The position numbers and the translations under genes are program-made. Positions 13,853 to 64,000 of a stretch of DNA of 64,000 bases are shown here, in pieces. The notes under the pieces are model-generated. The model was not told the origin of the DNA, did no database searches, and saw only the letters and a program-made list of their open reading frames with translations. Position 1 is the stretch's first letter; every line of letters starts with the position of its first letter. Source of the stretch: Giardia intestinalis (taxonomy: Eukaryota); the NCBI GenBank assembly GCA_000002435.2, contig CM018793.1; one strand, 5' to 3'.

Positions 13853-13853
13853 T

Positions 13854-43193: not shown

Positions 43194-46100
43194 TCAAGCA
43201 TTTTGTGCTTTTTGAAGTTCTGCAATAATGCAATCCTTTTCTGCAAGCTCTCTTTTGAGCATGGAGAGCTCCGCTTTGAGACTGACAGCTTCTGGACTTG
43301 TCAAGTATGAATCTTTTCCATCAAGGCTAAGCTCTGCCTCTCTCGCCTTTGCATAGAGATCATTTTTCAATCCAGACAAATGTTGCAAAGATGTATTGAT
43401 GCGAGCATCTGAAATAGATGCATCTAACGCGAAGTTAATATTATTTTCATGAAGGATATTCCTCAATCTAACAAGCTCACTATTTTTCTCTATGTTAGCC
43501 TCTCTAAGCTTAGTCAGTGCATGCTCAAGTTGACCGACTGCAGTTATCACGCGGGCCAATTCATCTTCTGTATAGTGAAGATCATCGGTAAGCTTTTGTA
43601 CCTCGTCGCGTAGGGCGAGGGTTTCCTCACCGGGATCACTGTTGTAGGTCCAGTCAAAGCGCTCGTTCAGCGCGTCCTTATATTCCAGTATCTTATTATC
43701 CTTTGCTTGAATGCGCTCTTCTAATATTGCAATCTCTTCTTTGAGGCGAGAAATTTCAGAGATCTTCCGTTCGACTTCAGCATTGCGAGAATTAAGCAGA
43801 AGGACAAGATTATCAACAGACTGCGATACTGTTTCATCATGAAGCTTGAGATCTTTATGGGCAAGGCTTTGAAGCCTGTCTATCTCATGTTTCAAAATGG
43901 CTAACTCTTCAGTTAATGCCGCAGAGTCAATCTTTGAGTCTAAAGACGAAAGTATTGCACTTGACTTAATAAGCCCATTCAAAAACTCCTTCCCTGTTTC
44001 AAAAGTATGGACAACAGTATTTGTTTGTGACGCGACAAGCGTCTGCTGGAGTTGGATGATCTCCTCTTGGTGCTGGCGAATCGCTTGTCGAAGATCTGGG
44101 ATGGTATCCTGCATCTCGCGGATCTGGGCCTTGGCGTCGTTCATGGCTCCGAGGTTTTCGGTCAGGGCAGAGACCCTGTCCTCAGCGGCGGCGAGCTGGG
44201 CGCGGGCGGTCTGCAGGGCGTCCTGGGCCTCCGCCAGCTGAGCCGCGAGGGCATCTCGCTCGGCCTCCAGATTCTTGTGCTCGGCCTCCAGAGCTGCGGC
44301 CTCGTCGAGGGCCTTATCGAGGGCCGCACGGGCCTCATCGCGCTCGGCCTCTGCAGCACGCACGTCGGCCTCAAGGCGGCGGATGGCCTCGTCGCCGCCC
44401 TGCGCCTGCTGTGCCTTGGCGCGGAACTTCTCGGCGGCATCGGCGAGGGCCTCTGTGCCTGCTGCTGCGTGTGCCTCGAGCTCGGCGATTTTGGCGCGGG
44501 CGTCGGCAAGCCTTTCTTCGGCGGCCTTGGCCTGAGCCTCCAGCTCTGCAGCGCGCTCTGCAAGCGCCTCTGCGTCGCGAGCACGCACGGCATCTTCGGC
44601 CGCCTGCTCGCGGAGGCGCGCCAGCTCCTCGGAGAGATCCTCGAGCTGGGCCGCCTTGAGCTGGGCGTCTTCCTGGTGGGCGGCGGCCTGCTCGCGCGCT
44701 TCACGGAGCGCCGCTGCGTTCTCGGCTGCGTCGCGGCGGAGGGCTGCAAGCTCCTGCTGAAGCTGCTGCGCGGCGTCGCCGTGGTCGGCAATCCCGTCGA
44801 TCGCCTCTGCAAGCGCCTTCTCGCGGGCCTCGAGCTTGTCTGTAAGGGCGGCGCTTTCGTCTTCGAGGCGACGGATCCTGTTCTGGGCGTCCTCGAGCGC
44901 GCCGTCTGTAGCGCTTCTTTTGAGGTCCATGGCAGTAAGCTGGCGCTCGCGGTCCCGGACCTCCTCTGCTCGCGCTTCGGCCTTGCGGCCCAGCGATTGA
45001 AGGGCACTCTCCAGCTCGTCGACGCGGTTGCGCAGCCGTGCCGTCTTGGCGGCGCTTTCTTCTGCTTGCTCTGCCCTTGCGGCTGCCTCGTCCTCCAGGG
45101 CTTGAATCCGCGTTCTGGCGGCCTCGACACTGGCCGTTGTTCGGGAAAGTTCGTCACTCAGCTGGCCGATCTCCTTGTCCTTTGCATCAAGGGTGGCATG
45201 GAGGTCATCTCGCTCGGCCTCGAGTTGAACGATGCGCTCTGCAGCGCCTTCATTGTCTTGCGCACGTAGTTGTTGAAGCTCGCGCTCGCGGTTGTCTGCC
45301 TCCTCGCGAAGTCTTTCTGCCTCATTCCGGAGCATGTCAAGCGCCACTGTCTTCTCATCGAGCTCGCCCTGCTTTTGCTCCAGCTCCTTCCTAAGAGTTC
45401 CAAGCTCCATTTCCTGCATCCCTGCATCTATCTGCTTGCTCTTGAGCTCTGACAAATAATCTTCGAGCATTTGGGTGCGCTCCTTCGAATCGGAAGCCTG
45501 CTGCTCGAGATGAGAAAGTGCATCAATCTTGTCGTGTGCTTCCTGGAGCTCGCGACGAAGCTCAGCGATTTCGTCTGCCTGACGCTGTGCTAAAGTGTCT
45601 TTATCTCTGGCTGCTTCTTCTAAATAGTGGACCTGGGCCTTGGCGTCGTTCATGGCTCCGAGGTTTTCGGTCAGGGCAGAGACCCTGTCCTCAGCGGCGG
45701 CGAGCTGGGCGCGGGCGGTCTGCAGGGCGTCCTGGGCCTCCGCCAGCTGAGCCGCGAGGGCATCTCGCTCGGCCTCCAGATTCTTGTGCTCGGCCTCCAG
45801 AGCTGCGGCCTCGTCGAGGGCCTTATCGAGGGCCGCACGGGCCTCATCGCGCTCGGCCTCTGCAGCACGCACGTCGGCCTCAAGGCGGCGGATGGCCTCG
45901 TCGCCGCCCTGCGCCTGCTGTGCCTTGGCGCGGAACTTCTCGGCGGCATCGGCGAGGGCCTCTGTGCCTGCTGCTGCGTGTGCCTCGAGCTCGACGATTT
46001 TGGCGCGGGCGTCGGCAAGCCTTTCTTCGGCGGCCTTGGCCTGAGCCTCCAGCTCTGCAGCGCGCTCTGCAAGCGCCTCTGCGTCGCGAGCACGCACGGC

Positions 46101-49100
46101 ATCTTCGGCCGCCTGCTCGCGGAGGCGCGCCAGCTCCTCGGAGAGATCCTCGAGCTGGGCCGCCTTGAGCTGGGCGTCTTCCTGGTGGGCGGCGGCCTGC
46201 TCGCGCGCTTCACGGAGCGCCGCTGCGTTCTCGGCTGCGTCGCGGCGGAGGGCTGCAAGCTCCTGCTGAAGCTGCTGCGCGGCGTCGCCGTGGTCGGCAA
46301 TCCCGTCGATCGCCTCTGCAAGCGCCTTCTCGCGGGCCTCGAGCTTGTCTGTAAGGGCGGCGCTTTCGTCTTCGAGGCGACGGATCCTGTTCTGGGCGTC
46401 CTCGAGCGCGCCGTCTGTAGCGCTTCTTTTGAGGTCCATGGCAGTAAGCTGGCGCTCGCGGTCCCGGACCTCCTCTGCTCGCGCTTCGGCCTTGCGGCCC
46501 AGCGATTGAAGGGCACTCTCCAGCTCGTCGACGCGGTTGCGCAGCCGTGCCGTCTTGGCGGCGCTTTCTTCTGCTTGCTCTGCCCTTGCGGCTGCCTCGT
46601 CCTCCAGGGCTTGAATCCGCGTTCTGGCGGCCTCGACACTGGCCGTTGTTCGGGAAAGTTCGTCACTCAGCTGGCCGATCTCCTTGTCCTTTGCATCAAG
46701 GGTGGCATGGAGGTCATCTCGCTCGGCCTCGAGTTGAACGATGCGCTCTGCAGCGCCTTCATTGTCTTGCGCACGTAGTTGTTGAAGCTCGCGCTCGCGG
46801 TTGTCTGCCTCCTCGCGAAGTCTTTCTGCCTCATTCCGGAGCATGTCAAGCGCCACTGTCTTCTCATCGAGCTCGCCCTGCTTTTGCTCCAGCTCCTTCC
46901 TAAGAGTTCCAAGCTCCATTTCCTGCATCCCTGCATCTATCTGCTTGCTCTTGAGCTCTGACAAATAATCTTCGAGCATTTGGGTGCGCTCCTTCGAATC
47001 GGAAGCCTGCTGCTCGAGATGAGAAAGTGCATCAATCTTGTCGTGTGCTTCCTGGAGCTCGCGACGAAGCTCAGCGATTTCGTCTGCCTGACGCTGTGCT
47101 AAAGTGTCTTTATCTCTGGCTGCTTCTTCTAAATAGTGGACCTGGGCCTTGGCGTCGTTCATGGCTCCGAGGTTTTCGGTCAGGGCAGAGACCCTGTCCT
47201 CAGCGGCGGCGAGCTGGGCGCGGGCGGTCTGCAGGGCGTCCTGGGCCTCCGCCAGCTGAGCCGCGAGGGCATCTCGCTCGGCCTCCAGATTCTTGTGCTC
47301 GGCCTCCAGAGCTGCGGCCTCGTCGAGGGCCTTATCGAGGGCCGCACGGGCCTCATCGCGCTCGGCCTCTGCAGCACGCACGTCGGCCTCAAGGCGGCGG
47401 ATGGCCTCGTCGCCGCCCTGCGCCTGCTGTGCCTTGGCGCGGAACTTCTCGGCGGCATCGGCGAGGGCCTCTGTGCCTGCTGCTGCGTGTGCCTCGAGCT
47501 CGGCGATTTTGGCGCGGGCGTCGGCAAGCCTTTCTTCGGCGGCCTTGGCCTGAGCCTCCAGCTCTGCAGCGCGCTCTGCAAGCGCCTCTGCGTCGCGAGC
47601 ACGCACGGCATCTTCGGCCGCCTGCTCGCGGAGGCGCGCCAGCTCCTCGGAGAGATCCTCGAGCTGGGCCGCCTTGAGCTGGGCGTCTTCCTGGTGGGCG
47701 GCGGCCTGCTCGCGCGCTTCACGGAGCGCCGCTGCGTTCTCGGCTGCGTCGCGGCGGAGGGCTGCAAGCTCCTGCTGAAGCTGCTGCGCGGCGTCGCCGT
47801 GGTCGGCAATCCCGTCGATCGCCTCTGCAAGCGCCTTCTCGCGGGCCTCGAGCTTGTCTGTAAGGGCGGCGCTTTCGTCTTCGAGGCGACGGATCCTGTT
47901 CTGGGCGTCCTCGAGCGCGCCGTCTGTAGCGCTTCTTTTGAGGTCCATGGCAGTAAGCTGGCGCTCGCGGTCCCGGACCTCCTCTGCTCGCGCTTCGGCC
48001 TTGCGGCCCAGCGATTGAAGGGCACTCTCCAGCTCGTCGACGCGGTTGCGCAGCCGTGCCGTCTTGGCGGCGCTTTCTTCTGCTTGCTCTGCCCTTGCGG
48101 CTGCCTCGTCCTCCAGGGCTTGAATCCGCGTTCTGGCGGCCTCGACACTGGCCGTTGTTCGGGAAAGTTCGTCACTCAGCTGGCCGATCTCCTTGTCCTT
48201 TGCATCAAGGGTGGCATGGAGGTCATCTCGCTCGGCCTCGAGTTGAACGATGCGCTCTGCAGCGCCTTCATTGTCTTGCGCACGTAGTTGTTGAAGCTCG
48301 CGCTCGCGGTTGTCTGCCTCCTCGCGAAGTCTTTCTGCCTCATTCCGGAGCATGTCAAGCGCCACTGTCTTCTCATCGAGCTCGCCCTGCTTTTGCTCCA
48401 GCTCCTTCCTAAGAGTTCCAAGCTCCATTTCCTGCATCCCTGCATCTATCTGCTTGCTCTTGAGCTCTGACAAATAATCTTCGAGCATTTGGGTGCGCTC
48501 CTTCGAATCGGAAGCCTGCTGCTCGAGATGAGAAAGTGCATCAATCTTGTCGTGTGCTTCCTGGAGCTCGCGACGAAGCTCAGCGATTTCGTCTGCCTGA
48601 CGCTGTGCTAAAGTGTCTTTATCTCTGGCTGCTTCTTCTAAATAGTGGACCTGGGCCTTGGCGTCGTTCATGGCTCCGAGGTTTTCGGTCAGGGCAGAGA
48701 CCCTGTCCTCAGCGGCGGCGAGCTGGGCGCGGGCGGTCTGCAGGGCGTCCTGGGCCTCCGCCAGCTGAGCCGCGAGGGCATCTCGCTCGGCCTCCAGATT
48801 CTTGTGCTCGGCCTCCAGAGCTGCGGCCTCGTCGAGGGCCTTATCGAGGGCCGCACGGGCCTCATCGCGCTCGGCCTCTGCAGCACGCACGTCGGCCTCA
48901 AGGCGGCGGATGGCCTCGTCGCCGCCCTGCGCCTGCTGTGCCTTGGCGCGGAACTTCTCGGCGGCATCGGCGAGGGCCTCTGTGCCTGCTGCTGCGTGTG
49001 CCTCGAGCTCGGCGATTTTGGCGCGGGCGTCGGCAAGCCTTTCTTCGGCGGCCTTGGCCTGAGCCTCCAGCTCTGCAGCGCGCTCTGCAAGCGCCTCTGC

Positions 49101-55100: not shown

Positions 55101-58100
55101 CGCCATCTGAATTTCATTGGCTTGTGCCTCATGGGTTCGTCTGGCAAATTCCATCTGGGACGCGACAAGCGTCTGCTGGAGTTGGATGATCTCCTCTTGG
55201 TGCTGGCGAATCGCTTGTCGAAGATCTGGGATGGTATCCTGCATCTCGCGGATCTGGGCCTTGGCGTCGTTCATGGCTCCGAGGTTTTCGGTCAGGGCAG
55301 AGACCCTGTCCTCAGCGGCGGCGAGCTGGGCGCGGGCGGTCTGCAGGGCGTCCTGGGCCTCCGCCAGCTGAGCCGCGAGGGCATCTCGCTCGGCCTCCAG
55401 ATTCTTGTGCTCGGCCTCCAGAGCTGCGGCCTCGTCGAGGGCCTTATCGAGGGCCGCACGGGCCTCATCGCGCTCGGCCTCTGCAGCACGCACGTCGGCC
55501 TCAAGGCGGCGGATGGCCTCGTCGCCGCCCTGCGCCTGCTGTGCCTTGGCGCGGAACTTCTCGGCGGCATCGGCGAGGGCCTCTGTGCCTGCTGCTGCGT
55601 GTGCCTCGAGCTCGGCGATTTTGGCGCGGGCGTCGGCAAGCCTTTCTTCGGCGGCCTTGGCCTGAGCCTCCAGCTCTGCAGCGCGCTCTGCAAGCGCCTC
55701 TGCGTCGCGAGCACGCACGGCATCTTCGGCCGCCTGCTCGCGGAGGCGCGCCAGCTCCTCGGAGAGATCCTCGAGCTGGGCCGCCTTGAGCTGGGCGTCT
55801 TCCTGGTGGGCGGCGGCCTGCTCGCGCGCTTCACGGAGCGCCGCTGCGTTCTCGGCTGCGTCGCGGCGGAGGGCTGCAAGCTCCTGCTGAAGCTGCTGCG
55901 CGGCGTCGCCGTGGTCGGCAATCCCGTCGATCGCCTCTGCAAGCGCCTTCTCGCGGGCCTCGAGCTTGTCTGTAAGGGCGGCGCTTTCGTCTTCGAGGCG
56001 ACGGATCCTGTTCTGGGCGTCCTCGAGCGCGCCGTCTGTAGCGCTTCTTTTGAGGTCCATGGCAGTAAGCTGGCGCTCGCGGTCCCGGACCTCCTCTGCT
56101 CGCGCTTCGGCCTTGCGGCCCAGCGATTGAAGGGCACTCTCCAGCTCGTCGACGCGGTTGCGCAGCCGTGCCGTCTTGGCGGCGCTTTCTTCTGCTTGCT
56201 CTGCCCTTGCGGCTGCCTCGTCCTCCAGGGCTTGAATCCGCGTTCTGGCGGCCTCGACACTGGCCGTTGTTCGGGAAAGTTCGTCACTCAGCTGGCCGAT
56301 CTCCTTGTCCTTTGCATCAAGGGTGGCATGGAGGTCATCTCGCTCGGCCTCGAGTTGAACGATGCGCTCTGCAGCGCCTTCATTGTCTTGCGCACGTAGT
56401 TGTTGAAGCTCGCGCTCGCGGTTGTCTGCCTCCTCGCGAAGTCTTTCTGCCTCATTCCGGAGCATGTCAAGCGCCACTGTCTTCTCATCGAGCTCGCCCT
56501 GCTTTTGCTCCAGCTCCTTCCTAAGAGCGCTTGCTTCAATAGTATAAATTTGAGTATCTGACATCTGTGATTTAAGCTCACTAACAAAATCTTCCAACCG
56601 TTGAGTACGTTCTTTGGAATCGTTCGCTCTTTCCTCTGATGCCTTATTTAATTTTTTCAGGTCTGCTACCTCTGTCAAAAGTTCCTTTTTGTCGCGCTCG
56701 AGTTGAGCCACGCGATCAACAAGATCTTGAGATTCCTCTGCCTCTAGTTTCATAGTGGCAATTTCATCCATTTGTGCATTTAAGTTATCCAATAGCTCCG
56801 CCATCTGAATTTCATTGGCTTGTGCCTCATGGGTTCGTCTGGCAAATTCCATCTGGGACGCGACAAGCGTCTGCTGGAGTTGGATGATCTCCTCTTGGTG
56901 CTGGCGAATCGCTTGTCGAAGATCTGGGATGGTATCCTGCATCTCGCGGATCTGGGCCTTGGCGTCGTTCATGGCTCCGAGGTTTTCGGTCAGGGCAGAG
57001 ACCCTGTCCTCAGCGGCGGCGAGCTGGGCGCGGGCGGTCTGCAGGGCGTCCTGGGCCTCCGCCAGCTGAGCCGCGAGGGCATCTCGCTCGGCCTCCAGAT
57101 TCTTGTGCTCGGCCTCCAGAGCTGCGGCCTCGTCGAGGGCCTTATCGAGGGCCGCACGGGCCTCATCGCGCTCGGCCTCTGCAGCACGCACGTCGGCCTC
57201 AAGGCGGCGGATGGCCTCGTCGCCGCCCTGCGCCTGCTGTGCCTTGGCGCGGAACTTCTCGGCGGCATCGGCGAGGGCCTCTGTGCCTGCTGCTGCGTGT
57301 GCCTCGAGCTCGGCGATTTTGGCGCGGGCGTCGGCAAGCCTTTCTTCGGCGGCCTTGGCCTGAGCCTCCAGCTCTGCAGCGCGCTCTGCAAGCGCCTCTG
57401 CGTCGCGAGCACGCACGGCATCTTCGGCCGCCTGCTCGCGGAGGCGCGCCAGCTCCTCGGAGAGATCCTCGAGCTGGGCCGCCTTGAGCTGGGCGTCTTC
57501 CTGGTGGGCGGCGGCCTGCTCGCGCGCTTCACGGAGCGCCGCTGCGTTCTCGGCTGCGTCGCGGCGGAGGGCTGCAAGCTCCTGCTGAAGCTGCTGCGCG
57601 GCGTCGCCGTGGTCGGCAATCCCGTCGATCGCCTCTGCAAGCGCCTTCTCGCGGGCCTCGAGCTTGTCTGTAAGGGCGGCGCTTTCGTCTTCGAGGCGAC
57701 GGATCCTGTTCTGGGCGTCCTCGAGCGCGCCGTCTGTAGCGCTTCTTTTGAGGTCCATGGCAGTAAGCTGGCGCTCGCGGTCCCGGACCTCCTCTGCTCG
57801 CGCTTCGGCCTTGCGGCCCAGCGATTGAAGGGCACTCTCCAGCTCGTCGACGCGGTTGCGCAGCCGTGCCGTCTTGGCGGCGCTTTCTTCTGCTTGCTCT
57901 GCCCTTGCGGCTGCCTCGTCCTCCAGGGCTTGAATCCGCGTTCTGGCGGCCTCGACACTGGCCGTTGTTCGGGAAAGTTCGTCACTCAGCTGGCCGATCT
58001 CCTTGTCCTTTGCATCAAGGGTGGCATGGAGGTCATCTCGCTCGGCCTCGAGTTGAACGATGCGCTCTGCAGCGCCTTCATTGTCTTGCGCACGTAGTTG

Positions 58101-61100
58101 TTGAAGCTCGCGCTCGCGGTTGTCTGCCTCCTCGCGAAGTCTTTCTGCCTCATTCCGGAGCATGTCAAGCGCCACTGTCTTCTCATCGAGCTCGCCCTGC
58201 TTTTGCTCCAGCTCCTTCCTAAGAGTTCCAAGCTCCATTTCCTGCATCCCTGCATCTATCTGCTTGCTCTTGAGCTCTGACAAATAATCTTCGAGCATTT
58301 GGGTGCGCTCCTTCGAATCGGAAGCCTGCTGCTCGAGATGAGAAAGTGCATCAATCTTGTCGTGTGCTTCCTGGAGCTCGCGACGAAGCTCAGCGATTTC
58401 GTCTGCCTGACGCTGTGCTAAAGTGTCTTTATCTCTGGCTGCTTCTTCTAAATAGTGGACCTGGGCCTTGGCGTCGTTCATGGCTCCGAGGTTTTCGGTC
58501 AGGGCAGAGACCCTGTCCTCAGCGGCGGCGAGCTGGGCGCGGGCGGTCTGCAGGGCGTCCTGGGCCTCCGCCAGCTGAGCCGCGAGGGCATCTCGCTCGG
58601 CCTCCAGATTCTTGTGCTCGGCCTCCAGAGCTGCGGCCTCGTCGAGGGCCTTATCGAGGGCCGCACGGGCCTCATCGCGCTCGGCCTCTGCAGCACGCAC
58701 GTCGGCCTCAAGGCGGCGGATGGCCTCGTCGCCGCCCTGCGCCTGCTGTGCCTTGGCGCGGAACTTCTCGGCGGCATCGGCGAGGGCCTCTGTGCCTGCT
58801 GCTGCGTGTGCCTCGAGCTCGGCGATTTTGGCGCGGGCGTCGGCAAGCCTTTCTTCGGCGGCCTTGGCCTGAGCCTCCAGCTCTGCAGCGCGCTCTGCAA
58901 GCGCCTCTGCGTCGCGAGCACGCACGGCATCTTCGGCCGCCTGCTCGCGGAGGCGCGCCAGCTCCTCGGAGAGATCCTCGAGCTGGGCCGCCTTGAGCTG
59001 GGCGTCTTCCTGGTGGGCGGCGGCCTGCTCGCGCGCTTCACGGAGCGCCGCTGCGTTCTCGGCTGCGTCGCGGCGGAGGGCTGCAAGCTCCTGCTGAAGC
59101 TGCTGCGCGGCGTCGCCGTGGTCGGCAATCCCGTCGATCGCCTCTGCAAGCGCCTTCTCGCGGGCCTCGAGCTTGTCTGTAAGGGCGGCGCTTTCGTCTT
59201 CGAGGCGACGGATCCTGTTCTGGGCGTCCTCGAGCGCGCCGTCTGTAGCGCTTCTTTTGAGGTCCATGGCAGTAAGCTGGCGCTCGCGGTCCCGGACCTC
59301 CTCTGCTCGCGCTTCGGCCTTGCGGCCCAGCGATTGAAGGGCACTCTCCAGCTCGTCGACGCGGTTGCGCAGCCGTGCCGTCTTGGCGGCGCTTTCTTCT
59401 GCTTGCTCTGCCCTTGCGGCTGCCTCGTCCTCCAGGGCTTGAATCCGCGTTCTGGCGGCCTCGACACTGGCCGTTGTTCGGGAAAGTTCGTCACTCAGCT
59501 GGCCGATCTCCTTGTCCTTTGCATCAAGGGTGGCATGGAGGTCATCTCGCTCGGCCTCGAGTTGAACGATGCGCTCTGCAGCGCCTTCATTGTCTTGCGC
59601 ACGTAGTTGTTGAAGCTCGCGCTCGCGGTTGTCTGCCTCCTCGCGAAGTCTTTCTGCCTCATTCCGGAGCATGTCAAGCGCCACTGTCTTCTCATCGAGC
59701 TCGCCCTGCTTTTGCTCCAGCTCCTTCCTAAGAGCGCTTGCTTCAATAGTATAAATTTGAGTATCTGACATCTGTGATTTAAGCTCACTAACAAAATCTT
59801 CCAACCGTTGAGTACGTTCTTTGGAATCGTTCGCTCTTTCCTCTGATGCCTTATTTAATTTTTTCAGGTCTGCTACCTCTGTCAAAAGTTCCTTTTTGTC
59901 GCGCTCGAGTTGAGCCACGCGATCAACAAGATCTTGAGATTCCTCTGCCTCTAGTTTCATAGTGGCAATTTCATCCATTTGTGCATTTAAGTTATCCAAT
60001 AGCTCCGCCATCTGAATTTCATTGGCTTGTGCCTCATGGGTTCGTCTGGCAAATTCCATCTGGGACGCGACAAGCGTCTGCTGGAGTTGGATGATCTCCT
60101 CTTGGTGCTGGCGAATCGCTTGTCGAAGATCTGGGATGGTATCCTGCATCTCGCGGATCTGGGCCTTGGCGTCGTTCATGGCTCCGAGGTTTTCGGTCAG
60201 GGCAGAGACCCTGTCCTCAGCGGCGGCGAGCTGGGCGCGGGCGGTCTGCAGGGCGTCCTGGGCCTCCGCCAGCTGAGCCGCGAGGGCATCTCGCTCGGCC
60301 TCCAGATTCTTGTGCTCGGCCTCCAGAGCTGCGGCCTCGTCGAGGGCCTTATCGAGGGCCGCACGGGCCTCATCGCGCTCGGCCTCTGCAGCACGCACGT
60401 CGGCCTCAAGGCGGCGGATGGCCTCGTCGCCGCCCTGCGCCTGCTGTGCCTTGGCGCGGAACTTCTCGGCGGCATCGGCGAGGGCCTCTGTGCCTGCTGC
60501 TGCGTGTGCCTCGAGCTCGGCGATTTTGGCGCGGGCGTCGGCAAGCCTTTCTTCGGCGGCCTTGGCCTGAGCCTCCAGCTCTGCAGCGCGCTCTGCAAGC
60601 GCCTCTGCGTCGCGAGCACGCACGGCATCTTCGGCCGCCTGCTCGCGGAGGCGCGCCAGCTCCTCGGAGAGATCCTCGAGCTGGGCCGCCTTGAGCTGGG
60701 CGTCTTCCTGGTGGGCGGCGGCCTGCTCGCGCGCTTCACGGAGCGCCGCTGCGTTCTCGGCTGCGTCGCGGCGGAGGGCTGCAAGCTCCTGCTGAAGCTG
60801 CTGCGCGGCGTCGCCGTGGTCGGCAATCCCGTCGATCGCCTCTGCAAGCGCCTTCTCGCGGGCCTCGAGCTTGTCTGTAAGGGCGGCGCTTTCGTCTTCG
60901 AGGCGACGGATCCTGTTCTGGGCGTCCTCGAGCGCGCCGTCTGTAGCGCTTCTTTTGAGGTCCATGGCAGTAAGCTGGCGCTCGCGGTCCCGGACCTCCT
61001 CTGCTCGCGCTTCGGCCTTGCGGCCCAGCGATTGAAGGGCACTCTCCAGCTCGTCGACGCGGTTGCGCAGCCGTGCCGTCTTGGCGGCGCTTTCTTCTGC

Positions 61101-64000
61101 TTGCTCTGCCCTTGCGGCTGCCTCGTCCTCCAGGGCTTGAATCCGCGTTCTGGCGGCCTCGACACTGGCCGTTGTTCGGGAAAGTTCGTCACTCAGCTGG
61201 CCGATCTCCTTGTCCTTTGCATCAAGGGTGGCATGGAGGTCATCTCGCTCGGCCTCGAGTTGAACGATGCGCTCTGCAGCGCCTTCATTGTCTTGCGCAC
61301 GTAGTTGTTGAAGCTCGCGCTCGCGGTTGTCTGCCTCCTCGCGAAGTCTTTCTGCCTCATTCCGGAGCATGTCAAGCGCCACTGTCTTCTCATCGAGCTC
61401 GCCCTGCTTTTGCTCCAGCTCCTTCCTAAGAGCGCTTGCTTCAATAGTATAAATTTGAGTATCTGACATCTGTGATTTAAGCTCACTAACAAAATCTTCC
61501 AACCGTTGAGTACGTTCTTTGGAATCGTTCGCTCTTTCCTCTGATGCCTTATTTAATTTTTTCAGGTCTGCTACCTCTGTCAAAAGTTCCTTTTTGTCGC
61601 GCTCGAGTTGAGCCACGCGATCAACAAGATCTTGAGATTCCTCTGCCTCTAGTTTCATAGTGGCAATTTCATCCATTTGTGCATTTAAGTTATCCAATAG
61701 CTCCGCCATCTGAATTTCATTGGCTTGTGCCTCATGGGTTCGTCTGGCAAATTCCATCTGGGACGCGACAAGCGTCTGCTGGAGTTGGATGATCTCCTCT
61801 TGGTGCTGGCGAATCGCTTGTCGAAGATCTGGGATGGTATCCTGCATCTCGCGGATCTGGGCCTTGGCGTCGTTCATGGCTCCGAGGTTTTCGGTCAGGG
61901 CAGAGACCCTGTCCTCAGCGGCGGCGAGCTGGGCGCGGGCGGTCTGCAGGGCGTCCTGGGCCTCCGCCAGCTGAGCCGCGAGGGCATCTCGCTCGGCCTC
62001 CAGATTCTTGTGCTCGGCCTCCAGAGCTGCGGCCTCGTCGAGGGCCTTATCGAGGGCCGCACGGGCCTCATCGCGCTCGGCCTCTGCAGCACGCACGTCG
62101 GCCTCAAGGCGGCGGATGGCCTCGTCGCCGCCCTGCGCCTGCTGTGCCTTGGCGCGGAACTTCTCGGCGGCATCGGCGAGGGCCTCTGTGCCTGCTGCTG
62201 CGTGTGCCTCGAGCTCGGCGATTTTGGCGCGGGCGTCGGCAAGCCTTTCTTCGGCGGCCTTGGCCTGAGCCTCCAGCTCTGCAGCGCGCTCTGCAAGCGC
62301 CTCTGCGTCGCGAGCACGCACGGCATCTTCGGCCGCCTGCTCGCGGAGGCGCGCCAGCTCCTCGGAGAGATCCTCGAGCTGGGCCGCCTTGAGCTGGGCG
62401 TCTTCCTGGTGGGCGGCGGCCTGCTCGCGCGCTTCACGGAGCGCCGCTGCGTTCTCGGCTGCGTCGCGGCGGAGGGCTGCAAGCTCCTGCTGAAGCTGCT
62501 GCGCGGCGTCGCCGTGGTCGGCAATCCCGTCGATCGCCTCTGCAAGCGCCTTCTCGCGGGCCTCGAGCTTGTCTGTAAGGGCGGCGCTTTCGTCTTCGAG
62601 GCGACGGATCCTGTTCTGGGCGTCCTCGAGCGCGCCGTCTGTAGCGCTTCTTTTGAGGTCCATGGCAGTAAGCTGGCGCTCGCGGTCCCGGACCTCCTCT
62701 GCTCGCGCTTCGGCCTTGCGGCCCAGCGATTGAAGGGCACTCTCCAGCTCGTCGACGCGGTTGCGCAGCCGTGCCGTCTTGGCGGCGCTTTCTTCTGCTT
62801 GCTCTGCCCTTGCGGCTGCCTCGTCCTCCAGGGCTTGAATCCGCGTTCTGGCGGCCTCGACACTGGCCGTTGTTCGGGAAAGTTCGTCACTCAGCTGGCC
62901 GATCTCCTTGTCCTTTGCATCAAGGGTGGCATGGAGGTCATCTCGCTCGGCCTCGAGTTGAACGATGCGCTCTGCAGCGCCTTCATTGTCTTGCGCACGT
63001 AGTTGTTGAAGCTCGCGCTCGCGGTTGTCTGCCTCCTCGCGAAGTCTTTCTGCCTCATTCCGGAGCATGTCAAGCGCCACTGTCTTCTCATCGAGCTCGC
63101 CCTGCTTTTGCTCCAGCTCCTTCCTAAGAGTTCCAAGCTCCATTTCCTGCATCCCTGCATCTATCTGCTTGCTCTTGAGCTCTGACAAATAATCTTCGAG
63201 CATTTGGGTGCGCTCCTTCGAATCGGAAGCCTGCTGCTCGAGATGAGAAAGTGCATCAATCTTGTCGTGTGCTTCCTGGAGCTCGCGACGAAGCTCAGCG
63301 ATTTCGTCTGCCTGACGCTGTGCTAAAGTGTCTTTATCTCTGGCTGCTTCTTCTAAATAGTGGACCTGGGCCTTGGCGTCGTTCATGGCTCCGAGGTTTT
63401 CGGTCAGGGCAGAGACCCTGTCCTCAGCGGCGGCGAGCTGGGCGCGGGCGGTCTGCAGGGCGTCCTGGGCCTCCGCCAGCTGAGCCGCGAGGGCATCTCG
63501 CTCGGCCTCCAGATTCTTGTGCTCGGCCTCCAGAGCTGCGGCCTCGTCGAGGGCCTTATCGAGGGCCGCACGGGCCTCATCGCGCTCGGCCTCTGCAGCA
63601 CGCACGTCGGCCTCAAGGCGGCGGATGGCCTCGTCGCCGCCCTGCGCCTGCTGTGCCTTGGCGCGGAACTTCTCGGCGGCATCGGCGAGGGCCTCTGTGC
63701 CTGCTGCTGCGTGTGCCTCGAGCTCGGCGATTTTGGCGCGGGCGTCGGCAAGCCTTTCTTCGGCGGCCTTGGCCTGAGCCTCCAGCTCTGCAGCGCGCTC
63801 TGCAAGCGCCTCTGCGTCGCGAGCACGCACGGCATCTTCGGCCGCCTGCTCGCGGAGGCGCGCCAGCTCCTCGGAGAGATCCTCGAGCTGGGCCGCCTTG
63901 AGCTGGGCGTCTTCCTGGTGGGCGGCGGCCTGCTCGCGCGCTTCACGGAGCGCCGCTGCGTTCTCGGCTGCGTCGCGGCGGAGGGCTGCAAGCTCCTGCT
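43194..64000 (-). CDS. Giant Ala/Glu-rich coiled-coil protein built from tandem ~503/566-aa repeats, partial (N-terminus beyond window end), more than 6878 codons in window
   Basis: Stop TGA at 43194-43196 (verified). Unique ~280-aa C-terminal tail (43194 to ~44028). Upstream of it the frame stays open through at least 12 near-identical repeat units to the window edge. The track's first M is mid-repeat, so the ORF almost certainly continues past 64000. The sequence is continuous heptad-type (AEALAERAAELEAQAKAAEERLADARAKIAELEAH...). Confidence 0.85.
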   Translation of the reverse strand, partial: QELAALRRDAAENAAALREAREQAAAHQEDAQLKAAQLEDLSEELARLREQAAEDAVRARDAEALAERAAELEAQAKAAEERLADARAKIAELEAHAAAGTEALADAAEKFRAKAQQAQGGDEAIRRLEADVRAAEAERDEARAALDKALDEAAALEAEHKNLEAERDALAAQLAEAQDALQTARAQLAAAEDRVSALTENLGAMNDAKAQVHYLEEAARDKDTLAQRQADEIAELRRELQEAHDKIDALSHLEQQASDSKERTQMLEDYLSELKSKQIDAGMQEMELGTLRKELEQKQGELDEKTVALDMLRNEAERLREEADNRERELQQLRAQDNEGAAERIVQLEAERDDLHATLDAKDKEIGQLSDELSRTTASVEAARTRIQALEDEAAARAEQAEESAAKTARLRNRVDELESALQSLGRKAEARAEEVRDRERQLTAMDLKRSATDGALEDAQNRIRRLEDESAALTDKLEAREKALAEAIDGIADHGDAAQQLQQELAALRRDAAENAAALREAREQAAAHQEDAQLKAAQLEDLSEELARLREQAAEDAVRARDAEALAERAAELEAQAKAAEERLADARAKIAELEAHAAAGTEALADAAEKFRAKAQQAQGGDEAIRRLEADVRAAEAERDEARAALDKALDEAAALEAEHKNLEAERDALAAQLAEAQDALQTARAQLAAAEDRVSALTENLGAMNDAKAQIREMQDTIPDLRQAIRQHQEEIIQLQQTLVASQMEFARRTHEAQANEIQMAELLDNLNAQMDEIATMKLEAEESQDLVDRVAQLERDKKELLTEVADLKKLNKASEERANDSKERTQRLEDFVSELKSQMSDTQIYTIEASALRKELEQKQGELDEKTVALDMLRNEAERLREEADNRERELQQLRAQDNEGAAERIVQLEAERDDLHATLDAKDKEIGQLSDELSRTTASVEAARTRIQALEDEAAARAEQAEESAAKTARLRNRVDELESALQSLGRKAEARAEEVRDRERQLTAMDLKRSATDGALEDAQNRIRRLEDESAALTDKLEAREKALAEAIDGIADHGDAAQQLQQELAALRRDAAENAAALREAREQAAAHQEDAQLKAAQLEDLSEELARLREQAAEDAVRARDAEALAERAAELEAQAKAAEERLADARAKIAELEAHAAAGTEALADAAEKFRAKAQQAQGGDEAIRRLEADVRAAEAERDEARAALDKALDEAAALEAEHKNLEAERDALAAQLAEAQDALQTARAQLAAAEDRVSALTENLGAMNDAKAQIREMQDTIPDLRQAIRQHQEEIIQLQQTLVASQMEFARRTHEAQANEIQMAELLDNLNAQMDEIATMKLEAEESQDLVDRVAQLERDKKELLTEVADLKKLNKASEERANDSKERTQRLEDFVSELKSQMSDTQIYTIEASALRKELEQKQGELDEKTVALDMLRNEAERLREEADNRERELQQLRAQDNEGAAERIVQLEAERDDLHATLDAKDKEIGQLSDELSRTTASVEAARTRIQALEDEAAARAEQAEESAAKTARLRNRVDELESALQSLGRKAEARAEEVRDRERQLTAMDLKRSATDGALEDAQNRIRRLEDESAALTDKLEAREKALAEAIDGIADHGDAAQQLQQELAALRRDAAENAAALREAREQAAAHQEDAQLKAAQLEDLSEELARLREQAAEDAVRARDAEALAERAAELEAQAKAAEERLADARAKIAELEAHAAAGTEALADAAEKFRAKAQQAQGGDEAIRRLEADVRAAEAERDEARAALDKALDEAAALEAEHKNLEAERDALAAQLAEAQDALQTARAQLAAAEDRVSALTENLGAMNDAKAQVHYLEEAARDKDTLAQRQADEIAELRRELQEAHDKIDALSHLEQQASDSKERTQMLEDYLSELKSKQIDAGMQEMELGTLRKELEQKQGELDEKTVALDMLRNEAERLREEADNRERELQQLRAQDNEGAAERIVQLEAERDDLHATLDAKDKEIGQLSDELSRTTASVEAARTRIQALEDEAAARAEQAEESAAKTARLRNRVDELESALQSLGRKAEARAEEVRDRERQLTAMDLKRSATDGALEDAQNRIRRLEDESAALTDKLEAREKALAEAIDGIADHGDAAQQLQQELAALRRDAAENAAALREAREQAAAHQEDAQLKAAQLEDLSEELARLREQAAEDAVRARDAEALAERAAELEAQAKAAEERLADARAKIAELEAHAAAGTEALADAAEKFRAKAQQAQGGDEAIRRLEADVRAAEAERDEARAALDKALDEAAALEAEHKNLEAERDALAAQLAEAQDALQTARAQLAAAEDRVSALTENLGAMNDAKAQIREMQDTIPDLRQAIRQHQEEIIQLQQTLVASQMEFARRTHEAQANEIQMAELLDNLNAQMDEIATMKLEAEESQDLVDRVAQLERDKKELLTEVADLKKLNKASEERANDSKERTQRLEDFVSELKSQMSDTQIYTIEASALRKELEQKQGELDEKTVALDMLRNEAERLREEADNRERELQQLRAQDNEGAAERIVQLEAERDDLHATLDAKDKEIGQLSDELSRTTASVEAARTRIQALEDEAAARAEQAEESAAKTARLRNRVDELESALQSLGRKAEARAEEVRDRERQLTAMDLKRSATDGALEDAQNRIRRLEDESAALTDKLEAREKALAEAIDGIADHGDAAQQLQQELAALRRDAAENAAALREAREQAAAHQEDAQLKAAQLEDLSEELARLREQAAEDAVRARDAEALAERAAELEAQAKAAEERLADARAKIAELEAHAAAGTEALADAAEKFRAKAQQAQGGDEAIRRLEADVRAAEAERDEARAALDKALDEAAALEAEHKNLEAERDALAAQLAEAQDALQTARAQLAAAEDRVSALTENLGAMNDAKAQIREMQDTIPDLRQAIRQHQEEIIQLQQTLVASQMEFARRTHEAQANEIQMAELLDNLNAQMDEIATMKLEAEESQDLVDRVAQLERDKKELLTEVADLKKLNKASEERANDSKERTQRLEDFVSELKSQMSDTQIYTIEASALRKELEQKQGELDEKTVALDMLRNEAERLREEADNRERELQQLRAQDNEGAAERIVQLEAERDDLHATLDAKDKEIGQLSDELSRTTASVEAARTRIQALEDEAAARAEQAEESAAKTARLRNRVDELESALQSLGRKAEARAEEVRDRERQLTAMDLKRSATDGALEDAQNRIRRLEDESAALTDKLEAREKALAEAIDGIADHGDAAQQLQQELAALRRDAAENAAALREAREQAAAHQEDAQLKAAQLEDLSEELARLREQAAEDAVRARDAEALAERAAELEAQAKAAEERLADARAKIAELEAHAAAGTEALADAAEKFRAKAQQAQGGDEAIRRLEADVRAAEAERDEARAALDKALDEAAALEAEHKNLEAERDALAAQLAEAQDALQTARAQLAAAEDRVSALTENLGAMNDAKAQIREMQDTIPDLRQAIRQHQEEIIQLQQTLVASQMEFARRTHEAQANEIQMAELLDNLNAQMDEIATMKLEAEESQDLVDRVAQLERDKKELLTEVADLKKLNKASEERANDSKERTQRLEDFVSELKSQMSDTQIYTIEASALRKELEQKQGELDEKTVALDMLRNEAERLREEADNRERELQQLRAQDNEGAAERIVQLEAERDDLHATLDAKDKEIGQLSDELSRTTASVEAARTRIQALEDEAAARAEQAEESAAKTARLRNRVDELESALQSLGRKAEARAEEVRDRERQLTAMDLKRSATDGALEDAQNRIRRLEDESAALTDKLEAREKALAEAIDGIADHGDAAQQLQQELAALRRDAAENAAALREAREQAAAHQEDAQLKAAQLEDLSEELARLREQAAEDAVRARDAEALAERAAELEAQAKAAEERLADARAKIAELEAHAAAGTEALADAAEKFRAKAQQAQGGDEAIRRLEADVRAAEAERDEARAALDKALDEAAALEAEHKNLEAERDALAAQLAEAQDALQTARAQLAAAEDRVSALTENLGAMNDAKAQIREMQDTIPDLRQAIRQHQEEIIQLQQTLVASQMEFARRTHEAQANEIQMAELLDNLNAQMDEIATMKLEAEESQDLVDRVAQLERDKKELLTEVADLKKLNKASEERANDSKERTQRLEDFVSELKSQMSDTQIYTIEASALRKELEQKQGELDEKTVALDMLRNEAERLREEADNRERELQQLRAQDNEGAAERIVQLEAERDDLHATLDAKDKEIGQLSDELSRTTASVEAARTRIQALEDEAAARAEQAEESAAKTARLRNRVDELESALQSLGRKAEARAEEVRDRERQLTAMDLKRSATDGALEDAQNRIRRLEDESAALTDKLEAREKALAEAIDGIADHGDAAQQLQQELAALRRDAAENAAALREAREQAAAHQEDAQLKAAQLEDLSEELARLREQAAEDAVRARDAEALAERAAELEAQAKAAEERLADARAKIAELEAHAAAGTEALADAAEKFRAKAQQAQGGDEAIRRLEADVRAAEAERDEARAALDKALDEAAALEAEHKNLEAERDALAAQLAEAQDALQTARAQLAAAEDRVSALTENLGAMNDAKAQVHYLEEAARDKDTLAQRQADEIAELRRELQEAHDKIDALSHLEQQASDSKERTQMLEDYLSELKSKQIDAGMQEMELGTLRKELEQKQGELDEKTVALDMLRNEAERLREEADNRERELQQLRAQDNEGAAERIVQLEAERDDLHATLDAKDKEIGQLSDELSRTTASVEAARTRIQALEDEAAARAEQAEESAAKTARLRNRVDELESALQSLGRKAEARAEEVRDRERQLTAMDLKRSATDGALEDAQNRIRRLEDESAALTDKLEAREKALAEAIDGIADHGDAAQQLQQELAALRRDAAENAAALREAREQAAAHQEDAQLKAAQLEDLSEELARLREQAAEDAVRARDAEALAERAAELEAQAKAAEERLADARAKIAELEAHAAAGTEALADAAEKFRAKAQQAQGGDEAIRRLEADVRAAEAERDEARAALDKALDEAAALEAEHKNLEAERDALAAQLAEAQDALQTARAQLAAAEDRVSALTENLGAMNDAKAQVHYLEEAARDKDTLAQRQADEIAELRRELQEAHDKIDALSHLEQQASDSKERTQMLEDYLSELKSKQIDAGMQEMELGTLRKELEQKQGELDEKTVALDMLRNEAERLREEADNRERELQQLRAQDNEGAAERIVQLEAERDDLHATLDAKDKEIGQLSDELSRTTASVEAARTRIQALEDEAAARAEQAEESAAKTARLRNRVDELESALQSLGRKAEARAEEVRDRERQLTAMDLKRSATDGALEDAQNRIRRLEDESAALTDKLEAREKALAEAIDGIADHGDAAQQLQQELAALRRDAAENAAALREAREQAAAHQEDAQLKAAQLEDLSEELARLREQAAEDAVRARDAEALAERAAELEAQAKAAEERLADARAKIAELEAHAAAGTEALADAAEKFRAKAQQAQGGDEAIRRLEADVRAAEAERDEARAALDKALDEAAALEAEHKNLEAERDALAAQLAEAQDALQTARAQLAAAEDRVSALTENLGAMNDAKAQVHYLEEAARDKDTLAQRQADEIAELRRELQEAHDKIDALSHLEQQASDSKERTQMLEDYLSELKSKQIDAGMQEMELGTLRKELEQKQGELDEKTVALDMLRNEAERLREEADNRERELQQLRAQDNEGAAERIVQLEAERDDLHATLDAKDKEIGQLSDELSRTTASVEAARTRIQALEDEAAARAEQAEESAAKTARLRNRVDELESALQSLGRKAEARAEEVRDRERQLTAMDLKRSATDGALEDAQNRIRRLEDESAALTDKLEAREKALAEAIDGIADHGDAAQQLQQELAALRRDAAENAAALREAREQAAAHQEDAQLKAAQLEDLSEELARLREQAAEDAVRARDAEALAERAAELEAQAKAAEERLADARAKIVELEAHAAAGTEALADAAEKFRAKAQQAQGGDEAIRRLEADVRAAEAERDEARAALDKALDEAAALEAEHKNLEAERDALAAQLAEAQDALQTARAQLAAAEDRVSALTENLGAMNDAKAQVHYLEEAARDKDTLAQRQADEIAELRRELQEAHDKIDALSHLEQQASDSKERTQMLEDYLSELKSKQIDAGMQEMELGTLRKELEQKQGELDEKTVALDMLRNEAERLREEADNRERELQQLRAQDNEGAAERIVQLEAERDDLHATLDAKDKEIGQLSDELSRTTASVEAARTRIQALEDEAAARAEQAEESAAKTARLRNRVDELESALQSLGRKAEARAEEVRDRERQLTAMDLKRSATDGALEDAQNRIRRLEDESAALTDKLEAREKALAEAIDGIADHGDAAQQLQQELAALRRDAAENAAALREAREQAAAHQEDAQLKAAQLEDLSEELARLREQAAEDAVRARDAEALAERAAELEAQAKAAEERLADARAKIAELEAHAAAGTEALADAAEKFRAKAQQAQGGDEAIRRLEADVRAAEAERDEARAALDKALDEAAALEAEHKNLEAERDALAAQLAEAQDALQTARAQLAAAEDRVSALTENLGAMNDAKAQIREMQDTIPDLRQAIRQHQEEIIQLQQTLVASQTNTVVHTFETGKEFLNGLIKSSAILSSLDSKIDSAALTEELAILKHEIDRLQSLAHKDLKLHDETVSQSVDNLVLLLNSRNAEVERKISEISRLKEEIAILEERIQAKDNKILEYKDALNERFDWTYNSDPGEETLALRDEVQKLTDDLHYTEDELARVITAVGQLEHALTKLREANIEKNSELVRLRNILHENNINFALDASISDARINTSLQHLSGLKNDLYAKAREAELSLDGKDSYLTSPEAVSLKAELSMLKRELAEKDCIIAELQKAQNA
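44162..45670 (-). repeat. Exemplar short (1509 bp, 503 aa) unit; carries the 235-bp short variable module at 45398-45632 (..AKAQ-VHYLEEAARDKDTLAQRQADEIAELRRELQEAHDKIDALSHLEQQASDSKERTQMLEDYLSELKSKQIDAGMQEMELGT-LRKELEQKQ..)
   Basis: Direct comparison with neighbouring units in the sequence. Confidence 0.85.
50198..51895 (-). repeat. Exemplar long (1698 bp, 566 aa) unit; carries the 424-bp long variable module at 51434-51857 (..AKAQ-IREMQDTIPDLRQAIRQHQEEIIQLQQTLVASQMEFARRTHEAQANEIQMAELLDNLNAQMDEIATMKLEAEESQDLVDRVAQLERDKKELLTEVADLKKLNKASEERANDSKERTQRLEDFVSELKSQMSDTQIYTIEASA-LRKELEQKQ..)
   Basis: The module is visibly AT-richer (taaatttgagtatctgacatctgtgatttaagctcactaacaaaatcttcc...) than the GC-rich shared flanks. 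The 189-bp length difference accounts for 1698 vs 1509. Confidence 0.85.

What the first reader, a model, noticed from the sequence alone, without database searches (positions are those of the whole stretch)
43194..64000. Giant coiled-coil gene whose body is a more than 20-kb tandem array of near-identical 1.5-1.7-kb coding repeats
A single minus-strand reading frame stays open from the stop at 43194 to the window edge. It encodes more than 6878 residues of uninterrupted Ala/Glu-rich heptad sequence. At least 12 complete units of 503 or 566 aa are essentially identical at the nucleotide level. The ORF is still mid-repeat at 64000, so the real gene is larger. At about 0.15 nm rise per residue, 6878+ residues of coiled coil would form a rod of roughly 1 micrometre or more. 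That is on the scale of the ventral disc, funis or median-body cytoskeleton of Giardia. Repeat number would then act as a length ruler that unequal crossing-over can change. Perfect kilobase-scale intragenic repeats of this kind are usually collapsed or mis-counted in assemblies and rarely annotated correctly.
Basis: partly seen in the sequence, partly recalled or inferred. Interest (0 to 1): 0.85.

Follow-up and report, generated by a model that had tools for sequence, protein, structure and literature searches.

The report
Giant repeat-expanded Giardia head-stalk protein gene
The window ends in the Giardia intestinalis gene for head-stalk protein GHSP-138, whose coiled-coil stalk is a tandem array of at least 12 nucleotide-identical 1.5 or 1.7 kb modules, so the protein is about 0.9 MDa or more, not the 180-236 kDa in older annotations; the mouse parasite Giardia muris has the same kind of array.

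Summary
A minus-strand frame of 6,934 codons runs from the window edge to the stop at 43194-43196. It holds six 1,509-nt (S) and six 1,698-nt (L) units, then a partial L unit fused to a unique 277-aa tail. The L copies are identical; the S copies differ by one base. The sequence is Ala/Glu-rich with a 3.5-residue periodicity.

The window is G. intestinalis WB, next to GL50803_16731. The gene is already named: GHSP-138 (ACJ49153.1, XP_001709357.1, annotated "GASP-180"). It belongs to the head-stalk family, which has an N-terminal ankyrin head and a coiled-coil stalk. The head and about 870 aa of unique stalk lie outside the window.

Older assemblies collapsed the array to 2,124 aa (WB) or 1,621 aa (DH), or broke at it (GS, P15). 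Short-read contigs from many samples stop exactly at both array junctions. Comparison of assemblages A and B gives dN/dS of about 0.06.

The syntenic G. muris orthologue (4,580 aa) carries 5.2 identical copies of a homologous 537-aa unit. Concerted evolution of a conserved, expanded stalk follows.

A long tether or spacer role is inferred, not shown. The exact unit count rests on one PacBio assembly at its resolution limit. I rate it a new variant of a known kind, of moderate interest.

The parts
43147..43193 (-). 47-bp AT-rich spacer between the giant gene's stop codon and the ATG of the next gene, GL50803_16731 (33997-43146, same strand).
   Evidence: Sequence read; neighbouring gene identified.
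43194..43196 (-). TGA stop codon of the giant gene.
43197..44028 (-). Unique C-terminal tail (277 aa). It is 85% identical to the assemblage B orthologue and under purifying selection. Residues 72-221 align at 36% identity with the G. muris orthologue.
   Evidence: Divergence point 44028; omega 0.067; comparison with G. muris.
44029..44756 (-). Terminal partial unit of L type. Its 728 nt are identical to the start of an L unit.
44757..46265 (-). Unit 12, S type (1,509 nt). It carries the only variant in the array: C->T at 45994, GCC->GTC, Ala->Val.
46266..50792 (-). Units 11, 10 and 9, all S type: 46266-47774, 47775-49283 and 49284-50792. They are identical to one another.
50793..57584 (-). 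Units 8, 7, 6 and 5, all L type (1,698 nt each): 50793-52490, 52491-54188, 54189-55886 and 55887-57584. They are identical to one another.
57585..59093 (-). Unit 4, S type.
59094..62489 (-). Units 3 and 2, L type: 59094-60791 and 60792-62489. Within unit 2 the shared 5' part is 61857-62489 (GC3 0.78), the L cassette is 61433-61856 (GC3 0.43) and the shared 3' part is 60792-61432 (GC3 0.69).
62490..63998 (-). Unit 1, S type. The shared 5' part is 63366-63998, the S cassette is 63131-63365 and the shared 3' part is 62490-63130.
63999..64000 (-). Last two bases of the preceding unit. The array, the roughly 1,060-aa unique N-terminal part and the ankyrin head continue beyond the window.
   Evidence: The DH and old-WB gene models map to the window only from gene nt 3183 onward.

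Best explanation
Shown. This is the 3' portion of the Giardia intestinalis WB gene for head-stalk protein GHSP-138. [quoted passage not shown] From N- to C-terminus the protein has:
- an ankyrin-repeat head of about 190 aa;
- about 870 aa of unique coiled coil;
- a tandem array of stalk modules, each 503 or 566 aa;
- a conserved 277-aa tail.
The head and the unique coiled coil lie outside the window.
With the 12.5 modules visible here, the protein has at least 8,036 aa (about 890 kDa, pI 4.7). A version with the array collapsed to its shortest path has 1,621 aa, which is the normal size for this family (1,620-1,650 aa). The array is therefore an internal amplification of one ~500-aa stalk segment in an otherwise typical 180-kDa head-stalk protein.

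Strongly inferred. The modules are kept identical by unequal exchange or gene conversion, that is, by concerted evolution. Modules are identical within WB and within G. muris. Between the two species they are only about 40% identical. Between assemblages A and B the repeat portion has dS of 0.68. Selection acts on the protein (omega 0.06). The heptad frame runs unbroken across module boundaries, and the two module sizes differ by exactly 63 aa, which is nine heptads.

Inferred, not shown. The protein dimerises into a very long, segmented coiled-coil tether or spacer. The ankyrin head would bind one partner and the conserved tail another, probably on axoneme- or basal-body-associated cytoskeleton. 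Module number would set the reach: about 75 nm per S module and 84 nm per L module if fully extended, and less if the three predicted breaks per module act as hinges.
For: Identity of the gene and locus.
Ankyrin head, Pfam Ank_2 at 108 bits.
Homology to GASP-180: 30% identity over 779 aa, E 1e-74.
Unit anatomy and identity.
Heptad periodicity, and a frame that continues across the unit boundary.
AF2 model about 96% helical, in four long helices per unit.
Purifying selection between assemblages A and B, omega 0.06 and 0.067.
Independent short-read contigs end at junction + k-1 at the 3' junction in 8 of 12 contigs, and at the 5' junction in one sample.
Collapsed or broken gene models in old WB, DH, GS and P15.
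Excess read depth on a 'GASP-180' gene in AII isolate AS175.
Syntenic G. muris orthologue of 4,580 aa with 5.18 perfectly identical 1,611-nt units that align full-length to the L unit, E 7e-61.
Edge copies of the unit are old and diverged, as expected for a homogenised array.
Functional precedent: trypanosome p197.
Against: No localisation, transcript or peptide data for this particular gene were found, and its GL50803 identifier could not be resolved.
The unit count and order rest on one assembly, whose reads rarely span the array.
The array's entry and exit points differ between G. intestinalis and G. muris. The two expansions may therefore be independent, and length might be tolerated rather than selected.
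Single-chain AF2 (pTM 0.32) cannot show dimerisation or extension.
The giant product was not found in the 5.8-billion-protein database. That search also missed the DH protein when the tail and the L unit were the queries, and it returned only a truncated fragment for the N-terminal query, so its silence proves little.
Confidence: 0.6

Rival explanations
1. The array is real, but this assembly has the wrong number or order of units. The true allele or alleles in the tetraploid WB genome may be shorter, longer or heterogeneous.
For: The units are 100% identical over at least 20 kb. PacBio RS II read N50 was 12.7 kb and only 10% of reads exceeded 20 kb. The authors state that about 20 kb is the largest duplication they could resolve, and that four gaps remain at long repeats. 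PBJelly gap filling was used.
Against: The aperiodic S/L order (S L L S L L L L S S S S) acts as a barcode that reads of 8-10 kb can tile across. A single SNP was preserved in unit 12, so polishing did not blindly homogenise the copies. The G. muris array, only 8.3 kb and well within read length, shows the same architecture.
Confidence: 0.35
2. The protein is not a single-molecule spacer. It is a building block that bundles laterally into a fibre or matrix, for example dense material along the cytoplasmic axonemes. Repeat identity would then serve regular staggered packing rather than reach.
For: Long uninterrupted heptad runs and a highly charged Ala/Glu/Arg surface with pI 4.7. A module periodicity of 75-84 nm could template regular packing. 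Family members are reported to be axoneme-associated.
Against: The distinct ankyrin head and the conserved tail suggest two-ended docking. There is no evidence on assembly state.
Confidence: 0.25
3. Stalk length has no specific function. The segment is simply prone to recombination, and copy number drifts by unequal exchange while the protein tolerates it.
For: Copy number differs between species, 5.2 against at least 12.5. The array boundaries also differ, and two unit variants coexist. Paralogues function at 1,620-1,650 aa.
Against: Expanded arrays persist at the same orthologous segment in two deeply diverged species. The frame and heptad phase are preserved: both unit lengths are multiples of 3 nt, and the S-L difference is exactly nine heptads. 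Omega is 0.06.
Confidence: 0.2
4. It is a non-coding satellite or a pseudogene whose open frame is incidental.
For: Perfect repeats multiply the apparent ORF length. Antisense ORFs of 433 aa also occur in each L unit.
Against: The chance of an open frame over the non-redundant 921 codons is about 1e-17. Omega is 0.06 against assemblage B. The orthologue in G. muris is intact. The sequence has a heptad pattern.
Confidence: 0.02

Closest known systems
Giardia head-stalk proteins (GASP-180, GHSP-115, GHSP-138; Elmendorf et al. 2005 and Bae et al. 2009, as cited in PMC3499766 and PMC13315228)
   Same: It is GHSP-138 itself: the 2,124-aa database entry ACJ49153.1 / XP_001709357.1 consists of the same N-terminal part, one S unit, the partial L unit and the tail. 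It has an N-terminal ankyrin head and a long coiled-coil stalk. It is 30% identical to GASP-180 over 779 aa.
   Different: Described family members have about 1,040-1,650 aa. Here one ~500-aa stalk segment is amplified at least 12-fold into identical modules, giving at least 8,036 aa. I found no mention of this in the papers I could search.
Giardia muris 'Axoneme-associated protein' TNJ27669.1 (4,580 aa)
   Same: It is the syntenic orthologue: the GTPase, the kinase and the downstream giant hypothetical gene are conserved. It has an ankyrin head and a homologous unit (38-40% identity, full length) repeated in tandem with 100% nucleotide identity.
   Different: It has 5.18 copies of a single 537-aa unit type, different entry and exit phases of the array, a longer C-terminal region, and no jump in GC3.
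Trypanosoma brucei p197 (exclusion-zone filament of the tripartite attachment complex; PMC9546609)
   Same: It is a giant alpha-helical protein whose central domain is about 26 nearly identical tandem repeats. It was annotated far too small (197 kDa against about 660 kDa) because assemblies collapsed the repeats. Its termini dock to two structures, and the repeat domain sets the distance between them.
   Different: The repeats are 175 aa, not 503 or 566. No sequence relationship was tested or is expected. It has no ankyrin head. Orthologues in other kinetoplastids lack the repeats, whereas here two Giardia species both have them. Function is demonstrated for p197 and only inferred here.
Coiled-coil spacer and ruler proteins in general (yeast Spc110 and Zip1, as listed in PMC9546609)
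   Same: A single coiled-coil molecule with a docking domain at each end defines a spacing.
   Different: Those examples are tens to about 115 nm long and non-repetitive. This one could reach up to about 1.1 micrometres, built from interchangeable modules.

Membership tests
Giardia head-stalk protein family (GASP-180 / GHSP) | N-terminal series of ankyrin repeats | tested here: met
   Pfam Ank_2 scores 108 bits (cut-off 27.3) at residues 11 to about 190 of P0232, and the same in the DH orthologue. This part lies outside the window. It is linked to the window by an identical repeat and tail sequence.
Giardia head-stalk protein family (GASP-180 / GHSP) | Long coiled-coil domain following the head | tested here: met
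   3.5-residue periodicity, heptad registers up to about 258 aa long, and an AF2 model about 96% helical.
Giardia head-stalk protein family (GASP-180 / GHSP) | Sequence homology to GASP-180 | tested here: met
   BLASTP of the N-terminal 1,060 aa: against GASP-180 (GS), 30% over 779 aa, E 1e-74; against the GL50803_41212 product, E 4e-74; against GHSP-115, 37% over 319 aa. Database name: 'head-stalk protein GHSP-138'.
Giardia head-stalk protein family (GASP-180 / GHSP) | Association with axonemes or other cytoskeleton in the cell | not testable with these tools
   Only GASP-180 localisation is cited. I found no localisation for GHSP-138.
p197-like repeat spacer (functional class, not a homology family) | Central alpha-helical domain of near-identical tandem repeats, under-counted in annotations | tested here: met
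p197-like repeat spacer (functional class, not a homology family) | Two termini anchored to different structures, with the distance scaling with repeat number | not testable with these tools
   Requires tagging and expansion microscopy.
SMC proteins (paralogues are annotated 'Chromosome segregation protein SMC') | SMC ATPase head and hinge domains | tested here: not met
   Pfam scans of the unit, the tail and P0232 give only ankyrin hits and generic sub-threshold coiled-coil hits.
Spectrin/plakin-type repeat rods, or motor (myosin/kinesin) head-stalk proteins | Spectrin repeat, plakin or motor domain | tested here: not met
   No such Pfam hit. No PDB sequence hit. No Foldseek hit against the PDB with E<=0.001.

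The most novel reading that the evidence does not exclude
GHSP-138 is a modular molecular ruler of micrometre scale. Interchangeable coiled-coil modules of about 75 nm and 84 nm differ by exactly nine heptads. Their number sets a defined spacing in Giardia's axoneme- or basal-body-associated cytoskeleton. Unequal crossing-over retunes that number between species and isolates, while concerted evolution keeps the modules identical. The GC3 jump in the segments shared by all modules would then be a footprint of GC-biased gene conversion in an organism whose sexual or recombination biology is still debated.
Probability: 0.2. Interest if true: 0.8.

Novelty: new variant of a known kind. Interest (0 to 1): 0.55.

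Why it matters
First, a named Giardia cytoskeletal and immunogen-family protein is probably four to five times larger than every published gene model. At about 0.9 MDa or more it would be among the largest proteins of this minimal eukaryote. This affects proteomics databases, read-depth and copy-number analyses, knock-down design and comparative genomics.

Second, the same kilobase-unit array exists, independently homogenised, in G. muris. That argues that stalk length is a maintained trait. It also gives a natural series, 5 against at least 12 modules, for testing a spacer or ruler function in the way done for trypanosome p197.

Third, the array is a clean example of intragenic concerted evolution in a parasite with very low heterozygosity and unresolved recombination biology. 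The GC3 jump inside one gene may be a usable read-out of gene conversion.

Tried and rejected
- TRF found nothing because its longest period is 500; I replaced it with k-mer spacing analysis.
- Protein-database searches with the tail and with the L unit returned only the GS partial, and missed even the DH protein. Absence from that database was therefore not used as evidence.
- The G. muris proteins P0138 and P0086 were checked as possible orthologues and rejected on synteny. The true orthologue came from an exhaustive phmmer search with the tail.
- The old GL50803 identifier was not resolved. GL50803_16745 and GL50803_23235 are also annotated 'GASP-180' on chromosome 5, but they are not adjacent to GL50803_16731. 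I therefore did not transfer the proteomic detection of GL50803_16745 to this gene.
- Searches of paper supplements for E2RU46 or GASP-180 gave nothing usable.
- The Bae et al. 2009 paper is not held.
- Foldseek and phmmer against the PDB gave nothing significant.
- Pfam hits to ATG16, Fez1, Tropomyosin and similar families are below or barely at their cut-offs. They are generic coiled-coil matches and were not used.
- SMC, spectrin and motor-protein readings were rejected (see the membership tests).
Full report
OBSERVATION

The minus strand of the window is open in one frame for 6,934 codons, from the window edge to a TGA at 43196-43194. K-mer spacing shows two repeat periods, 1,698 nt and 1,509 nt. 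TRF missed them only because its longest period is 500.

Anchoring on conserved motifs gives 12 complete units. Read 5'->3' along the gene the order is S L L S L L L L S S S S. S is 503 aa and L is 566 aa. A 13th, partial unit follows and runs into unique sequence. The six L units are identical at every base. The six S units are identical except for one C->T (Ala->Val) at 45994 in unit 12.

S and L share an identical 633-nt 5' segment and an identical 641-nt 3' segment. They differ in a central cassette of 235 nt (S) or 424 nt (L). The difference is 189 nt, which is 63 codons, or exactly nine heptads.

The protein is 22.5% Ala, 15.3% Glu, 11.8% Leu and 9.8% Arg, with nine prolines in 6,934 residues. 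GC is 0.60-0.66 in the array and 0.42-0.49 in the flank. Over the ~921 non-redundant codons, the chance of an open frame is about 1e-17.

IDENTITY

The flanking ORFs are exact matches to Giardia intestinalis WB (ATCC 50803) proteins GL50803_0016731, GL50803_0016732, a kinase and GL50803_0016734. All lie on a 4.02-Mb contig of the PacBio reference. The surrounding genes fit that genome: ankyrin-repeat proteins, a class I tRNA synthetase, a protein with a Raptor_N domain, and intergenic spacers of 25-50 bp.

In the assemblage AII isolate DH, the gene upstream of the GL50803_16731 orthologue is a 1,621-aa protein. It consists of:
- an ankyrin-repeat head;
- about 870 aa of unique coiled coil;
- the last 121 nt of a unit;
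- the first 728 nt of an L unit;
- the tail.

Its 90% identity cluster contains a 2,124-aa WB protein, ACJ49153.1 'head-stalk protein GHSP-138'. [quoted passage not shown] That protein equals the DH architecture plus exactly one S unit, since 1,621 + 503 = 2,124.

So the gene is already named. It belongs to the Giardia head-stalk family, which pairs ankyrin repeats with a long coiled coil (and the references listed). Its N-terminal 1,060 aa are 30% identical to GASP-180 over 779 aa, E 1e-74. Pfam finds Ank_2 at 108 bits and nothing else above threshold. The head and the unique stalk lie beyond position 64000 and are not in the window.

IS THE ARRAY REAL?

Independent evidence says yes:
- Of 12 short-read contigs from different SRA and ENA samples that carry the neighbouring gene, eight end at window 44057/44058 (k=31) or 44169 (k=141). 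That is the tail/L-unit divergence point plus k-1. It is what a de Bruijn graph does when the sequence upstream of that point continues in two ways.
- A contig entering from the N-terminal side stops 19 nt past the 5' junction.
- The GS (assemblage B) and P15 (assemblage E) genomes hold only partial gene models at contig ends.
- A comparative study of AII isolates noted excess read depth on 'one gene encoding GASP-180'. It does not say which of the genes with that annotation was meant.

What remains uncertain is the count. The WB reference was built from PacBio RS II reads with N50 12.7 kb, and 10% of reads exceeded 20 kb. It used HGAP, Quiver and PBJelly. Its authors regard about 20 kb as the largest duplication they could resolve, and they report four remaining gaps at long repeats. 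The aperiodic S/L order can be tiled by reads of 8-10 kb, and one SNP survived polishing. The string is therefore plausible, but it is unverified.

IS IT A FUNCTIONAL GENE?

Against the assemblage B orthologue, the repeat portion has dN 0.041 and dS 0.68 (omega 0.06). The tail has dN 0.094 and dS 1.39 (omega 0.067).

An exhaustive phmmer search with the tail against 1.84 billion representative proteins found only four proteins. One is a 4,580-aa Giardia muris protein, TNJ27669.1 'Axoneme-associated protein'. It is the syntenic orthologue. An Ephrin_rec_like protein, an NGP1 GTPase and a kinase lie upstream, and a 2,807-aa counterpart of GL50803_16731 lies downstream (compare).

The G. muris gene has the same ankyrin head. 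It also has 5.18 tandem copies of a 1,611-nt (537-aa) unit that are 100% identical over 8.3 kb. That unit aligns end to end with the WB L unit at 38-40% identity, E 7e-61. The S unit matches it only outside the cassette, so L is the ancestral form and S is derived from it.

Units are thus identical within each species but strongly diverged between species and between assemblages. This is the signature of concerted evolution, or of repeated recent amplification of the same segment. The array's entry and exit phases differ between the two species, so I cannot tell these two apart.

In WB, the sequences flanking the array are old, diverged copies of the unit. The 3' half of the unit is 31% identical to N-terminal residues 820-1101, and the start of the tail is homologous to the middle of the unit. 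This is usual for homogenised arrays. The collapsed form has 1,621 aa, the size of the paralogues (1,620-1,650 aa). This supports a model in which one ~500-aa stalk segment of an ordinary 180-kDa head-stalk protein was amplified.

STRUCTURE

The dominant hydrophobic periodicity is 3.5 residues. The a/d occupancy score is 3.92, against 2.1 +/- 0.15 for shuffled sequence. Several register shifts occur inside each unit. The heptad frame is nevertheless continuous across the unit boundary, with one register holding for about 258 residues that span it.

A single-sequence AF2 model of an L unit has mean pLDDT 78.9 and pTM 0.32. It gives four helices (2-117, 122-276, 287-398, 404-562) separated by short breaks. 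It has no PDB relative by sequence or by fold.

With the N-terminal part added, the minimum protein has 8,036 aa, 890 kDa and pI 4.7. Fully extended as a coiled coil it would measure about 1.1-1.2 micrometres. Each S unit would contribute about 75 nm and each L unit about 84 nm. These lengths are upper bounds.

MECHANISM

The gene structure, its family, the selection on it and the homogenisation of its units are shown. The function is inferred.

I think the protein most likely forms a long, segmented dimeric tether or spacer. The ankyrin head would dock at one end and the conserved tail at the other. Tail residues 72-221 are 36% identical to the G. muris orthologue. By family analogy, the docking sites would be on axoneme- or basal-body-associated cytoskeleton. 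Module number would set the reach.

The best precedent is Trypanosoma brucei p197. It has about 26 near-identical 175-aa helical repeats and a mass of about 660 kDa. It was annotated as 197 kDa because assemblies collapsed the repeats. [quoted passage not shown]

The rivals are:
- a miscounted array;
- a bundled fibre rather than a single-molecule spacer;
- neutral drift of copy number;
- a pseudogene, which is effectively excluded.

COMPARISON AND NOVELTY

The gene and its family are known, and the sequence sits in a public reference genome. I found no paper that describes the array, its size or its conservation in G. muris. The WB and G. muris genome papers do not mention it in their main text. 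My literature access is limited, however, and the two primary family papers are not held.

I class it as a new variant of a known kind: a head-stalk protein whose stalk is a kilobase-unit, concertedly evolving module array. Interest is moderate (0.55). It corrects a gene model by a factor of four to five and offers a testable ruler hypothesis with a natural two-species contrast. Giant repeat-built cytoskeletal proteins are, however, a known theme in protists, and the function here is untested.

Noticed in passing
window 44029-63998 (for example unit 2: 61857-62489, 61433-61856, 60792-61432): There is a sharp GC3 jump inside a single gene. The two segments shared by all units have GC3 of 0.78 and 0.69. 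The S and L cassettes (0.51, 0.43), the tail (0.375), the N-terminal unique part (0.456) and the neighbouring genes (0.39-0.56) sit at genome level. Expression-linked codon bias cannot explain this within one transcript. GC-biased gene conversion in the most-recombining segments is a candidate. The G. muris orthologue shows no such jump.
   Followed up: partly
window 44029-64000, plus strand: Each L unit carries an antisense open frame of 433 aa, and another sense-strand frame gives ORFs of 331 aa. These are mechanical by-products of GC-rich GAG/CTC-type coding repeats and could be mis-called as genes.
   Followed up: no
window 33997-43146 (-): GL50803_16731 is a 3,049-aa protein with no Pfam hit at all. 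It is conserved in synteny next to the giant gene in assemblage B (3,091 aa) and in G. muris (2,807 aa). It is a large orphan gene that always travels with GHSP-138.
   Followed up: partly
window 10200-13826 (-) and 13854-19475 (-): Two adjacent large genes (1,208 and 1,873 aa) each have ankyrin repeats at both the N- and C-termini, with a long unassigned middle. They are probably 'Protein 21.1'/ARP family members.
   Followed up: no
window 20151-28112 (-): The gene with a Raptor_N domain (GL50803_16734, 2,653 aa) appears as a 2,632-aa form in several other isolates' contigs. This suggests a different start codon or a small indel between sub-assemblages.
   Followed up: no
L020 (G. muris CM016927.1 556885-590627), gene at 10001-23743: The G. 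muris orthologue has about 256 residues beyond the block shared with the WB tail. Its array enters and exits the unit at different phases from the WB array, so the two arrays may have expanded independently.
   Followed up: partly
L017 12739-13287 (Logan SRR13990249 contig): In this sample the N-terminal part of the gene is called as two ORFs (929 aa and 183 aa). This implies a frameshift or an assembly error about 2.7 kb into the gene.
   Followed up: no
protein-database searches: The word-indexed protein search failed to return known exact relatives (the DH 1,621-aa and WB 2,124-aa proteins) when the query was Ala/Glu-rich coiled coil. The candidate list was probably swamped by low-complexity matches. 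Negative results for such queries are unreliable.
   Followed up: yes
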